Of a stretch of 64,000 nucleotides of DNA, positions 19,875 through 20,321 are shown in pieces. The DNA is taken from NCBI RefSeq assembly GCF_003334355.1, contig NZ_QOWP01000001.1. One strand, written 5' to 3'. This DNA is from Escherichia coli (GTDB lineage Bacteria; Pseudomonadota; Gammaproteobacteria; Enterobacterales; Enterobacteriaceae). Position numbers and translations under genes: made by a program. The first letter of the stretch is position 1. Each line of letters starts with the position of its first letter. The notes under the pieces were generated by a model. That model had not been told where the DNA came from. It saw only the letters and a program-made list of their open reading frames with translations, and searched no databases.

Positions 19875-20250
19875 CTTGTCCTCATTGAATAAGCGGGGCT
19901 GACAACTTTTTCATGGTGAAATTATCACCACGAAACCCAGCATCGGAGCCACTCCCGGTCCCCAACGCAATCGTTCTCTTTTGCCTGAACTTACCACCGA
20001 AACAGACTGTTAACCATAAGGTAAAATTGATCATCACATTAGCTTATGGTTAAAAAATGCAAAAATCGCGACAGAATAAAAAACCAAAAAATACACCAGT
20101 TTCTATACAAAGATGATGTGATGAGAAAGTCAATTTGAATAAGACAATATTAAGAGCTAAAAAAATGTCAAAAAACACTAAATCAAAAAATAATGGCATT
20201 AGAAAATATAATGCGAAAACGGAGGTGAAATTAGTTTATTTCAAATGAGG
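19875..20250 (-). promoter_or_regulatory. Extended AT-rich gcvTHP control region (expected GcvA/Lrp/PurR/CRP binding region and promoter)
   Basis: About 400 bp of strongly AT-rich non-coding DNA upstream of gcvT; individual binding sites not mapped here. Confidence 0.5.
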
Positions 20251-20251
20251 A

Positions 20252-20279
20252 AAATCTCCCGGCGAAAAAACCGGGAGAT
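20252..20279 (-). terminator. Rho-independent terminator downstream of ubiI
   Basis: Minus strand reads TCTCCCGGttttttcgCCGGGAGAttttcc. Confidence 0.65.
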
Positions 20280-20321
20280 GAAAGTGTGATGGGTATCAAA
20301 TAAACAACAGAGGAGAAATTT

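What the first reader, a model, noticed from the sequence alone, without database searches (positions are those of the whole stretch)
19875..20321. Unusually long AT-rich control region upstream of gcvT
About 450 bp separate gcvT from ubiI, most of it strongly AT-rich, followed by the ubiI terminator hairpin. The length and composition fit the known multi-regulator architecture of gcv (GcvA/GcvR, Lrp, PurR, CRP) and DNA looping, though no individual site was mapped here.
Basis: partly seen in the sequence, partly recalled or inferred. Interest (0 to 1): 0.3.

Follow-up and report, generated by a model that had tools for sequence, protein, structure and literature searches.

The report
Known gcvTHP control region of E. 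coli
The 447-bp AT-rich gap between ubiI and gcvT is the already well-studied multi-regulator switch of the E. coli glycine-cleavage operon, so the finding is correct but ordinary, with a few small extras (a tiny lineage-specific gene and a conserved leader hairpin) inside it.

Summary
Window 19875-20321 is exactly the ubiI-gcvT intergenic region (genes on the - strand), 100% identical to E. coli K-12 and present in 5426/5426 complete E. coli genomes. It is the longest of 65 gaps in the window and holds the window's lowest-GC 250 bp (0.27).

All elements of the published gcvTHP control region can be placed on it:
- a published TSS at 19982, with an extended -10 (TGgTAAGTT)
- a PurR-like box at +3..+18
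- three CTAAT GcvA blocks at -58, -218 and -250
- a CRP-like site centred at -310.5
- the ubiI hairpin between the CRP-like site and GcvA site 3

Footprinting across about 80 Enterobacterales shows these blocks conserved. The spacer between them is free in sequence (45% identity, hypervariable within E. coli) but fixed in length (160/161 bp), which fits the published GcvA/GcvR-Lrp loop.

- the 27-aa gene yqfI on the opposite strand, confined to Escherichia plus one Citrobacter isolate and showing no purifying selection
- a covarying leader hairpin (+15..+44) that ends near a published RNA 3' end (+53)
- the fact that extreme AT-richness is specific to E. coli

The region is already known and of low interest.

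The parts
20285..20300 (.). CRP-like site TTTGATACCCATCACA (9/10 of TGTGA-N6-TCACA), centre -310.5 from the TSS, lying between the ubiI stop codon and the hairpin.
   Evidence: The TCACA half is 94% conserved in 36 other Enterobacteriaceae; the left half is only 41% conserved. It sits at a fixed 315-316 nt from the PurR-like box in Escherichia, Citrobacter, Enterobacter, Lelliottia, Leclercia and Cedecea. CRP control of gcv is cited in PMC1905917.
20254..20279 (-). Hairpin downstream of ubiI (9-10 bp GC-rich stem, loop of 6-8 nt, then UUUU). It is the end of the ygfB-pepP-ubiH-ubiI transcript.
   Evidence: A stable hairpin occupies the same place in 37/38 Enterobacteriaceae (z < -2) with different stem sequences, but the U-tract is weak everywhere. 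SMRT-Cappable-seq lists no operon variant reading from ubiI into gcvT. No curated Term-seq 3' end is listed here.
20221..20250 (-). GcvA site 3: conserved block CCTCATTTGAAATAAACTAATTTCACCTCC, with CTAAT at 20234-20230 and the inverted repeat TGAAAT-N6-ATTTCA at 20243-20226 (about -268..-239).
   Evidence: Mean identity is 0.80. A CTAAT lies 255-258 nt upstream of the PurR-like box in 64/80 Enterobacterales gaps. The footprint range comes from my memory of Wilson et al. 1995; the 57-bp protected stretch is confirmed in PMC5002191.
20197..20216 (-). GcvA site 2: ATTAT-N5-CTAAT (20212-20198). It is ATTAG-N5-CTAAT on the opposite strand in most other genera.
   Evidence: Mean identity is 0.72. 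It matches the ATTAG-n5-CTAAT GcvA motif of PMC5002191.
20165..20248 (+). yqfI, a 27-aa small protein gene (MSKNTKSKNNGIRKYNAKTEVKLVYFK) on the strand opposite to gcvT. Its 3' half overlaps GcvA sites 2 and 3.
   Evidence: RefSeq annotation. Tagged-protein detection is reported in PMC6001520. Outside E. coli the ORF is intact only in Citrobacter sp. R56. One E. coli strain has lost it, and all differences between alleles are nonsynonymous.
20053..20196 (.). AT-rich spacer (GC 0.24), the published Lrp-binding and bending region. It carries seven T-runs of at least 5 T, all on the gcvT strand.
   Evidence: Cross-genus identity is only 0.45 and 36 positions vary among 5 E. coli strains, yet there are no indels. 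The site 2 to site 1 distance is 160/161 nt in all 38 sequences. The Lrp consensus is not enriched. The role of Lrp comes from PMC13104608 and from memory.
20010..20053 (-). GcvA site 1: 15-nt inverted repeat arms (TTAACCATAAGGTAA / TTAGCTTATGGTTAA) around CTAAT at 20042-20038; -71..-28.
   Evidence: Identity is 0.84. It is invariant among the E. coli alleles examined. The 35-bp protected stretch is reported in PMC5002191.
19982..19996 (-). gcvTHP core promoter: extended -10 TGgTAAGTT (TG 19996-19995, hexamer 19993-19988), poor -35, TSS at 19982.
   Evidence: TSS 3050775 (U00096.3, reverse strand) comes from the SMRT-Cappable-seq supplement of PMC6131387. It maps by window = genome coordinate - 3030793, anchored on yqfI. 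GTG-n-TAAGTT is nearly invariant across Enterobacterales.
19965..19980 (.). PurR-like operator AAGAGAACGATTGCGT (+3..+18).
   Evidence: Identity is 0.91. Other genera carry the better match AACGTTTGCGT. The motif match alone is at chance level. PurR control of gcvTHP is stated in PMC1905917.
19939..19968 (-). Leader RNA hairpin (+15..+44), followed by the conserved sequence (C/U)GGGUUUCG. A published RNA 3' end lies at 19930 (+53).
   Evidence: Fold. Covariation in 27 Enterobacteriaceae: 86.4% of cells paired against 77.0% in shuffles (0/500), 34 double-change cells against 13.7. Term-seq 3' end at 3050723: PMC7815308 supplement.
19875..19883 (-). gcvT ribosome-binding region (GAGGA at 19883-19879), 4 nt before the ATG at 19874.
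   Evidence: The block TCAATGAGGACAAG has identity 0.84.

Best explanation
The region is the cis-regulatory region of the gcvTHP (glycine cleavage) operon of E. coli, and nearly every part of the 447 bp is in use.

Layout, with positions relative to the TSS at 19982:
- Transcription starts from a weak, activator-dependent sigma-70 promoter that has an extended -10 and no good -35.
- GcvA (LysR type) binds a palindromic site 1 next to the promoter (about -71..-28).
- GcvA also binds two distal sites, 2 and 3 (about -215..-270).
- The roughly 145-bp AT-rich DNA between them is bound and bent by Lrp.

Mechanism, from the literature. Without glycine, GcvA/GcvR complexes at the distal and proximal sites close a repression loop. 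Glycine binding to GcvR breaks the loop and lets GcvA at sites 3/2 activate transcription. PurR sits on the start site (+3..+18) and gives purine repression. CRP bound at about -310 adds carbon-source input. The hairpin between the CRP-like site and site 3 ends the upstream ygfB-pepP-ubiH-ubiI transcript.

Shown here: sequence identity to K-12, the position of each motif, the conservation of the motif blocks, and the fixed spacer length.

Taken from published work or from memory: the binding of each protein and the loop itself.
For: Identity:
- 100% identical to MG1655 and present in all 5426 complete E. coli genomes. The flanking genes are annotated ubiI and gcvT.
- Published TSS 3050775 = window 19982. 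The conserved TGnTAAGTT lies immediately upstream of it.

GcvA sites:
- There are exactly three CTAAT motifs, all on the gcvT strand (shuffle mean 0.40, P(>=3) = 0.0055).
- They fall in the two stretches that match the 35-bp and 57-bp GcvA footprints described in PMC5002191. They fit the T-N11-A/CTAAT rule of PMC3658693.

Phylogenetic footprint over 36 non-E. coli Enterobacteriaceae (mean identity): site 3 0.80, site 2 0.72, site 1 0.84, core promoter 0.79, PurR box 0.91, CRP TCACA half 0.94, against spacer 0.45 and leader 0.48.

Spacing:
- Site 3 to the PurR box is 254-256 nt in 38/38 sequences.
- Site 2 to site 1 is 160/161 nt in 38/38 sequences.
- By contrast the leader varies from 62 to 109 nt and the ubiI-proximal part from 4 to 117 nt.
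- 64/80 gaps across Enterobacterales have a CTAAT 255-258 nt upstream of the PurR-like box.

Within E. coli, 36 spacer positions vary without any indel, while site 1, the promoter and the PurR box are invariant.

Literature: the loop model with GcvA/GcvR/Lrp is in PMC13104608, and PurR and CRP control are in PMC1905917.
Against: - The primary footprinting papers (PMC177269, PMC93593) are not in the library. The exact footprint limits are therefore from my memory. In Stauffer's numbering they fit a TSS 1-2 nt from the Cappable-seq one.
- The Lrp consensus YAGHAWATTWTDCTR is not enriched (1 hit at <=3 mismatches against 1.29 expected).
- The PurR core match (3 mismatches) is one of 39 in the window against 44.6 expected.
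- The CRP-like match is one of 3 in the window against 1.9 expected.
- The left half of the CRP-like site is poorly conserved and was not found in several genera.
- The extreme AT content is not conserved: spacer GC is 0.31-0.50 in other genera. Composition itself is therefore not the constrained feature.
- No binding was measured here.
Confidence: 0.93

Rival explanations
1. The gap is long mainly because it houses an independent protein-coding gene, yqfI, with its own promoter. On this reading the AT-rich DNA is that gene and its signals, not gcv regulatory DNA.
For: RefSeq annotates yqfI at 20165-20248 on the + strand. The tagged protein was detected and also scored in ribosome profiling (PMC6001520). 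An AAGAG Shine-Dalgarno-like motif lies 9 nt before its ATG.
Against: A gap of 305-690 bp (median 420) is conserved across Enterobacterales. Yet the ORF is intact only in E. coli and one Citrobacter; other genera lack the ATG or carry in-frame stops. E. coli strain 266917_2 has lost the start codon and has a stop at codon 7. All differences between E. coli alleles are nonsynonymous. The apparently conserved C-terminal half coincides with GcvA sites 2 and 3. No forward-strand TSS is listed in the SMRT-Cappable-seq supplement.
Confidence: 0.04
2. The AT-rich tract is foreign or degenerate DNA, such as a horizontally acquired remnant, a mobile-element scar or an H-NS-silenced island, with no specific regulatory design.
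For: It holds the lowest GC of the 64-kb window. The sequence is hypervariable within E. coli and poorly conserved between genera. It contains unconserved promoter-like hexamers.
Against: It is present at one copy per genome in nearly all of the 5426 E. coli genomes and is syntenic in 85/98 Enterobacterales loci. It has no repeat or mobile-element signature. Its length is fixed to within 1 bp over 38 Enterobacteriaceae sequences despite free sequence change, which neutral junk DNA would not show.
Confidence: 0.02
3. Control is mainly RNA-based, through a riboswitch or attenuator in the 108-nt gcvT leader, as in the many bacteria that place glycine riboswitches upstream of gcvT.
For: The leader folds better than shuffles (z = -3.1). 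A hairpin at +15..+44 covaries. Term-seq 3' ends lie at +53 and at +65 of the ORF.
Against: No Rfam family, including the glycine riboswitch, matches even at E <= 1. The leader beyond the first hairpin varies in length (62-109 nt) and sequence. Published genetics attribute glycine, purine and carbon-source control to DNA-binding proteins. An attenuator could still be an added layer; see the novel case.
Confidence: 0.02

Closest known systems
E. coli K-12 gcvTHP control region (Stauffer laboratory: three GcvA sites, Lrp region, PurR operator, CRP site, GcvA/GcvR repression loop)
   Same: The DNA is identical. There are three CTAAT blocks, a PurR-like box on the start site, a CRP-like site about 310 bp upstream and an AT-rich Lrp region between sites 2 and 1, all at positions that fit one TSS.
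   Different: Nothing differs in the sequence. This analysis adds evidence from many genera that spacer length, not spacer sequence or AT content, is the constrained feature.
gcvA-gcvB divergent promoter (GcvA inverted repeats ATTAG-N5-CTAAT, PMC5002191)
   Same: The same regulator and the same half-site are involved. Site 2 here reads ATTAG-N5-CTAAT in most genera.
   Different: There, two adjacent sites at -65 and -43 act without long-range looping. Here the distal sites act from about -220 to -250, with Lrp in between.
Glycine riboswitch upstream of gcvT (Bacillus, Vibrio, Neisseria; PMC13104608)
   Same: The same operon responds to the same signal, glycine.
   Different: There is no riboswitch here: no Rfam match at E <= 1. 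Glycine is sensed by the protein GcvR.
Newly annotated E. coli small proteins (YqfI in VanOrsdel et al. 2018, PMC6001520)
   Same: The 27-aa sequence and its location are identical.
   Different: No function is known. This analysis shows the ORF is restricted to Escherichia plus one Citrobacter isolate, is lost in at least one E. coli strain, and shows no sign of purifying selection.

Membership tests
E. coli gcvTHP control region | Lies immediately upstream of gcvT and has the K-12 sequence. | tested here: met
   447/447 identical to MG1655. Flanked by annotated ubiI and gcvT.
E. coli gcvTHP control region | Three GcvA sites carrying CTAAT: one promoter-proximal block (35 bp) and one distal double block (57 bp). 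| tested here: met
   CTAAT at 20042, 20202 and 20234 only, all on the gcvT strand (P = 0.0055 by shuffling). The blocks are conserved at 0.72-0.84 identity. Footprint sizes are from PMC5002191.
E. coli gcvTHP control region | PurR operator overlapping the transcription start. | tested here: met
   AAGAGAACGATTGCGT at +3..+18, 0.91 conserved, and closer to consensus in other genera. As a bare motif match it is at chance level. Conservation and position carry the argument.
E. coli gcvTHP control region | CRP site about 310 bp upstream of the start. | tested here: met
   TTTGA-N6-TCACA centred at -310.5. It sits at a fixed distance in six genera. It was not found in several others, and the left half is weakly conserved.
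E. coli gcvTHP control region | Multiple Lrp sites between GcvA sites 2 and 1. | tested here: inconclusive
   The Lrp consensus scan gives 1 hit against 1.29 expected. The region is AT-rich with seven T-runs but shows no clear phasing. Lrp binding rests on the literature and on memory.
E. coli gcvTHP control region | Dependence on distance or helical phase, consistent with a DNA loop. | tested here: met
   The site 2 to site 1 distance is 160/161 nt and the site 3 to PurR-box distance is 254-256 nt in 38/38 sequences, despite 45% spacer identity. The neighbouring segments vary in length. This is indirect evidence.
E. coli gcvTHP control region | Actual occupancy by GcvA, GcvR, Lrp, PurR and CRP, and its regulatory effect. 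| not testable with these tools
   Requires footprinting, ChIP or reporter assays. The published work could be cited only second-hand.
Intrinsic (Rho-independent) terminator of ubiI | GC-rich hairpin directly followed by a U-tract, with an RNA 3' end there. | tested here: inconclusive
   The hairpin is strong (-17.6 kcal/mol, z = -5.7) and structurally conserved in 37/38 sequences. The U-tract is only 4 U in E. coli and weaker elsewhere. The consensus scan does not call it. No curated Term-seq 3' end is listed there. Full-length reads show the ubiI operon does not continue into gcvT.
Conserved functional small protein (YqfI) | ORF kept intact and under purifying selection in related species. 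| tested here: not met
   The ORF is intact only in E. coli and Citrobacter sp. R56. It is lost in E. coli 266917_2, and all substitutions between alleles are nonsynonymous. Expression of the K-12 allele is published.
Glycine riboswitch | Match to the Rfam glycine riboswitch model in the gcvT leader. | tested here: not met
   The Rfam scan at E <= 1 returns only one spurious lncRNA hit.
Leader transcription attenuator | Conserved hairpin plus U-rich tail in the 5' UTR, with an RNA 3' end and regulated read-through. | tested here: inconclusive
   The hairpin covaries, and a published 3' end lies 9 nt after the stem. The tail is only UUU. No alternative antiterminator structure was identified. 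Regulation is not testable here.

The most novel reading that the evidence does not exclude
The covarying hairpin at +15..+44 of the gcvT leader, its conserved GGGUUUCG tail and the Term-seq 3' end at +53 may together form an uncharacterised attenuator, pause site or source of a roughly 53-nt leader RNA. That would add a post-initiation layer to gcv control in Enterobacteriaceae. The hairpin's 5' arm overlaps the PurR box, so PurR binding to DNA and folding of the RNA would use the same bases.
Probability: 0.2. Interest if true: 0.45.

Novelty: already known. Interest (0 to 1): 0.17.

Why it matters
The region is a textbook case of long-range bacterial gene control: a LysR activator, an anti-activator, an architectural protein and two global regulators act on one promoter.

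Confirming it adds no new biology. The comparison across genera gives a clean illustration that selection acts on the distance between operators while the DNA between them drifts freely. It also shows that a recently annotated small protein gene (yqfI) sits on operator DNA and looks like a young or accidental ORF. That is a useful caution when conservation of small ORFs inside regulatory regions is used as evidence of function.

The leader hairpin with its matching RNA 3' end is a small, testable lead.

Tried and rejected
**Primary papers.** Wilson 1995 (PMC177269), Wonderling 1999 (PMC93593), Thomason 2015 and Shi 2024 are not held.

**TSS tables.**
- Kim 2012 has no entry near gcvT; the table was cut when stored.
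- Conway 2014 has no supplements held.
- The Ettwiller 2016 supplement has no hit.
- Yan 2018 finally gave the TSS.

**Motif scans.** Scans for Lrp, PurR and CRP as stand-alone evidence gave matches no better than chance, so I rejected them as a decisive test.

**Terminator scan.** The consensus scan does not call the ubiI hairpin.

**Rfam.** Nothing real.

**Hairpin alignment.** A sequence alignment of the ubiI hairpin (A1) does not put the different stems in register. I used per-sequence folding with shuffles instead.

**A/T-tract phasing in the spacer.** There is no clear 10-11 bp periodicity.

**Promoter-like sites.**
- The - strand site TTGACA-16-TATTGT (20171->20144, 10/12) is not conserved between genera, and its last T is mutated in two E. 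coli alleles. I judged it incidental.
- The + strand site ATGTCA-18-AATAAT lies inside yqfI, so it cannot be the yqfI promoter.

**Short repeats.** The repeats D1, I2, I4 and I5 are probably chance.

**Other ORFs.** The mechanical ORFs of 46-51 aa in the gap lie in unconserved, T-rich DNA. I dismissed them.

Full report
**1. What is at the coordinates**

All genes here are on the - strand:
- gcvP 15375-18248
- gcvH 18367-18759
- gcvT 18780-19874
- ubiI 20322-21524
- ubiH 21547-22725

The finding's limits, 19875-20321, are exactly the 447-bp ubiI-gcvT gap.

Its composition is uneven:
- Whole gap: GC 0.358, against 0.517 for the window.
- Central tract 20000-20250: GC 0.275.
- Promoter-proximal 125 bp: GC 0.50.

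With the small gene yqfI ignored, the gap is the longest of 65 in the window (median 76 bp). The 250 bp at 20006-20255 have the lowest GC of the whole 64 kb. The gap lengths come from the K-12 annotation. The window itself is an E. coli strain about 0.6-0.7% diverged from MG1655, but the gap is 100% identical to MG1655.

The gap is present in 5426 of 5426 complete E. coli genomes.

**2. Mapping the known control region**

I converted coordinates with window = U00096.3 coordinate - 3030793. This is anchored on the published yqfI position 3050958-3051041 (PMC6001520). It is cross-checked by two Term-seq flanking sequences that match the window exactly.

SMRT-Cappable-seq places the gcvTHP start at 3050775, which is window 19982 (PMC6131387 supplement).

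On the gcvT strand, relative to that +1:

| Element | Window coordinates | Position |
|---|---|---|
| Extended -10 TGgTAAGTT, no good -35 | 19996-19988 | hexamer -11..-6 |
| PurR-like box AAGAGAACGATTGCGT | 19980-19965 | +3..+18 |
| GcvA site 1 palindrome around CTAAT (20042-20038) | 20053-20010 | -71..-28 |
| GcvA site 2, ATTAT-N5-CTAAT | 20212-20198 | -230..-216 |
| GcvA site 3, TGAAAT-N6-ATTTCA with CTAAT (20234-20230) | 20243-20226 | -261..-244 |
| ubiI hairpin | 20279-20254 | -297..-272 |
| CRP-like TTTGA-N6-TCACA | 20300-20285 | centre -310.5 |
| ubiI stop | 20324-20322 | -342..-340 |

The three CTAAT motifs are the only ones in the gap, and all are on the gcvT strand. Dinucleotide shuffles give a mean of 0.40 and P(>=3) = 0.0055.

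The papers I could read confirm the following:
- GcvA protects one 35-bp and one 57-bp stretch upstream of gcvTHP, with a shared CTAAT (PMC5002191).
- The GcvA consensus is T-N11-A containing CTAAT (PMC3658693).
- GcvA/GcvR and Lrp form a repression loop that glycine opens (PMC13104608).
- gcvTHP belongs to the PurR regulon and is CRP-dependent (PMC1905917).

The exact footprint limits come from my memory of the Stauffer papers, which the library does not hold. They are GcvA -69..-34, -241..-214 and -271..-242; Lrp -229..-92; PurR about -3..+17; CRP about -313. All of them fit a single start within 2 nt of 19982.

**3. Are the sites more than chance?**

As bare motif matches, mostly not:
- The PurR core with 3 mismatches is one of 39 such matches in the window, against 44.6 expected.
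- The CRP-like site is one of 3, against 1.9 expected.
- The Lrp consensus gives 1 hit, against 1.29 expected.

Conservation does settle it. A degenerate pattern from the gcvT N-terminus retrieved 120 Enterobacterales loci. Of these, 98 have enough upstream DNA, 85 have ubiI directly upstream, and 80 have a gap under 700 bp (range 305-690, median 420).

I aligned 36 non-E. coli Enterobacteriaceae to the window. Mean identity by block:

| Block | Mean identity |
|---|---|
| GcvA site 3 | 0.80 |
| GcvA site 2 | 0.72 |
| GcvA site 1 | 0.84 |
| Core promoter | 0.79 |
| PurR box | 0.91 |
| TCACA half of the CRP-like site | 0.94 |
| Shine-Dalgarno block | 0.84 |
| Spacer | 0.45 |
| Rest of the leader | 0.48 |
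| ubiI-proximal 21 bp | 0.06 |

Other genera carry AACGTTTGCGT, a better PurR half-site than E. coli's AACGATTGCGT. The motif GTG-n-TAAGTT is nearly invariant, even in Serratia, Yersinia, Erwinia and Proteus.

**4. Spacing**

The most informative result concerns length.

Fixed distances:
- Site 2 CTAAT to site 1 CTAAT: 160 or 161 nt in all 38 aligned sequences.
- Site 3 CTAAT to the PurR box: 254-256 nt in all 38.

Variable distances:
- Leader: 62 to 109 nt.
- ubiI-proximal segment: 4 to 117 nt.

Across the wider order, 64 of 80 gaps have a CTAAT 255-258 nt upstream of the PurR-like box.

Within E. coli I compared five alleles:
- They differ at 36 positions in 20058-20196, with no indel.
- No position varies in 19962-20057, which covers site 1, the promoter and the PurR box.
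- Only two positions vary in 20197-20306.

The spacer is thus nearly neutral in sequence but constrained in length. That is what a protein-bridged loop with an architectural bender predicts. From memory, it also agrees with the Stauffer laboratory's spacing and orientation experiments.

The extreme AT content is not conserved. Spacer GC is 0.22-0.24 in E. coli but 0.31-0.50 in other genera. Composition is a feature of Escherichia, not a requirement.

**5. The hairpin after ubiI**

The hairpin folds at -17.6 kcal/mol (z = -5.7). A stable hairpin occupies the same position in 37/38 Enterobacteriaceae, with quite different stem sequences (median z = -3.4).

The U-tract is weak everywhere: at most 4 T in the 8 nt after the stem. 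The consensus scan does not call it a terminator, and no curated Term-seq 3' end is listed there. Full-length reads nevertheless show ygfB-pepP-ubiH-ubiI as one operon with no variant running into gcvT.

'Terminator hairpin' is a reasonable label, but it is not a canonical terminator.

**6.

(a) **yqfI** (20165-20248, + strand, 27 aa) is annotated in RefSeq, and the protein was detected by epitope tagging (PMC6001520).
- It points away from gcvT, and its 3' half overlaps GcvA sites 2 and 3.
- The ATG-initiated ORF exists in E. coli and in Citrobacter sp. R56. The other Citrobacter sequences have a stop at codon 7. The other genera lack the ATG, and most also carry in-frame stops.
- E. coli 266917_2 has GAG in place of ATG and a stop at codon 7.
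- Every nucleotide difference among the E. coli alleles is nonsynonymous.
- The seemingly conserved C-terminus (..SNAK..VKLEYFK) is the translation of the GcvA operators.
- I read yqfI as a young or incidental ORF on regulatory DNA. Whether its expression interacts with the loop is unknown.

(b) **A leader hairpin.**
- The 108-nt leader folds better than shuffles (z = -3.1).
- Its first hairpin (19968-19939, +15..+44) covaries across 27 Enterobacteriaceae. 86.4% of cells are paired against 77.0% in shuffles (0/500). There are 34 double-change cells against 13.7 (0/500). Slid-partner controls give 29-55%. One caveat is that the structure was derived from the E. coli sequence.
- It is followed by a conserved (C/U)GGGUUUCG.
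- Term-seq reports an RNA 3' end at 3050723, which is window 19930 (+53), 9 nt after the stem. A second 3' end lies at +65 of the ORF (window 19809) (PMC7815308 supplements).
- Similar hairpins follow the PurR box in several Pantoea, Erwinia, Serratia and Rouxiella sequences.
- No paper returned by the library search discusses this.
- It could be a weak attenuator, a pause site or a stable decay product.

(c) **Two overlapping 10-codon uORFs** (19943-19911 and 19914-19882) lie in the length-variable part of the leader and are not conserved.

**7. Rivals**

- A mobile or foreign origin is excluded by universal presence, synteny, absence of repeats and fixed length.
- A glycine riboswitch is excluded by Rfam.
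- 'The gap exists to hold yqfI' is contradicted by the conservation of the gap in genera without the ORF.

**8. Verdict**

The finding is correct, and the region is the known gcvTHP control region. Novelty: already known. Interest is low.

The additions made here are:
- single-base placement of all the elements
- evidence from many genera for length-constrained but sequence-free spacer DNA
- the evolutionary status of yqfI
- a covarying leader hairpin coinciding with a published RNA 3' end, which is the only lead that might yield something new

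Noticed in passing
window 20165-20248 (+): The annotated small protein gene yqfI (27 aa) lies on GcvA sites 2 and 3 on the strand opposite to gcvT. The ORF is intact only in E. coli and Citrobacter sp. R56, is lost in E. coli 266917_2 (L124), and all differences between alleles are nonsynonymous. Its promoter was not identified, and no forward-strand TSS appears in the SMRT-Cappable-seq supplement.
   Followed up: yes
window 19939-19968 (-), with RNA 3' ends at 19930 and 19809: A covarying hairpin at +15..+44 of the gcvT leader is followed by a conserved GGGUUUCG. Published Term-seq 3' ends lie at +53 (in the 5' UTR) and at +65 of the gcvT ORF. It may be an attenuator, a pause site or a stable leader fragment. 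No paper returned by the library search describes it.
   Followed up: partly
window 19943-19911 and 19914-19882 (-): Two tandem 10-codon upstream ORFs ([20 protein letters not shown]) are joined by an overlapping ATGA. The second ends inside the gcvT Shine-Dalgarno sequence. They lie in the part of the leader that varies in length between genera, so they are probably incidental.
   Followed up: partly
window 20171->20144 (-): A strong promoter-like match, TTGACA-16-TATTGT (10/12), lies on the gcvT strand about 160 bp upstream of the real start. Its -35 hexamer overlaps the yqfI start codon. It is not conserved between genera, and its last T is mutated in two E. coli alleles.
   Followed up: partly
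window 19915-19924 and 20224-20233; 19876-19886 and 20244-20254; 19980-19989 and 20334-20343: Three short repeats link distant parts of the region. The leader carries a 10-nt copy (TAATTTCACC) of the core of GcvA site 3. CCTCATT just after the ubiI hairpin is complementary to the gcvT Shine-Dalgarno sequence AATGAGG. A perfect 10-nt inverted repeat links the promoter start region with the last codons of ubiI. All are probably chance.
   Followed up: no
window 57424-57439 and 57240-57489: A perfect CRP consensus TGTGATTTGCTTCACA lies in the 423-bp galP-metK gap. That gap is the second most AT-rich 250 bp of the window (GC 0.276) and is another long regulatory gap.
   Followed up: no
whole window: The window is not MG1655. 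It is 99.3-99.4% identical to NZ_CP032667.1 with a few indels (for example a C/T difference near 34039), although the ubiI-gcvT gap itself is identical to K-12.
   Followed up: partly
window 20058-20196 versus L124-L127: The spacer is hypervariable within E. coli: 36 variable positions in about 140 bp among five strains. The flanking operators are invariant. In this gap, 973 of 5426 genomes are only 90-95% identical to K-12.
   Followed up: partly
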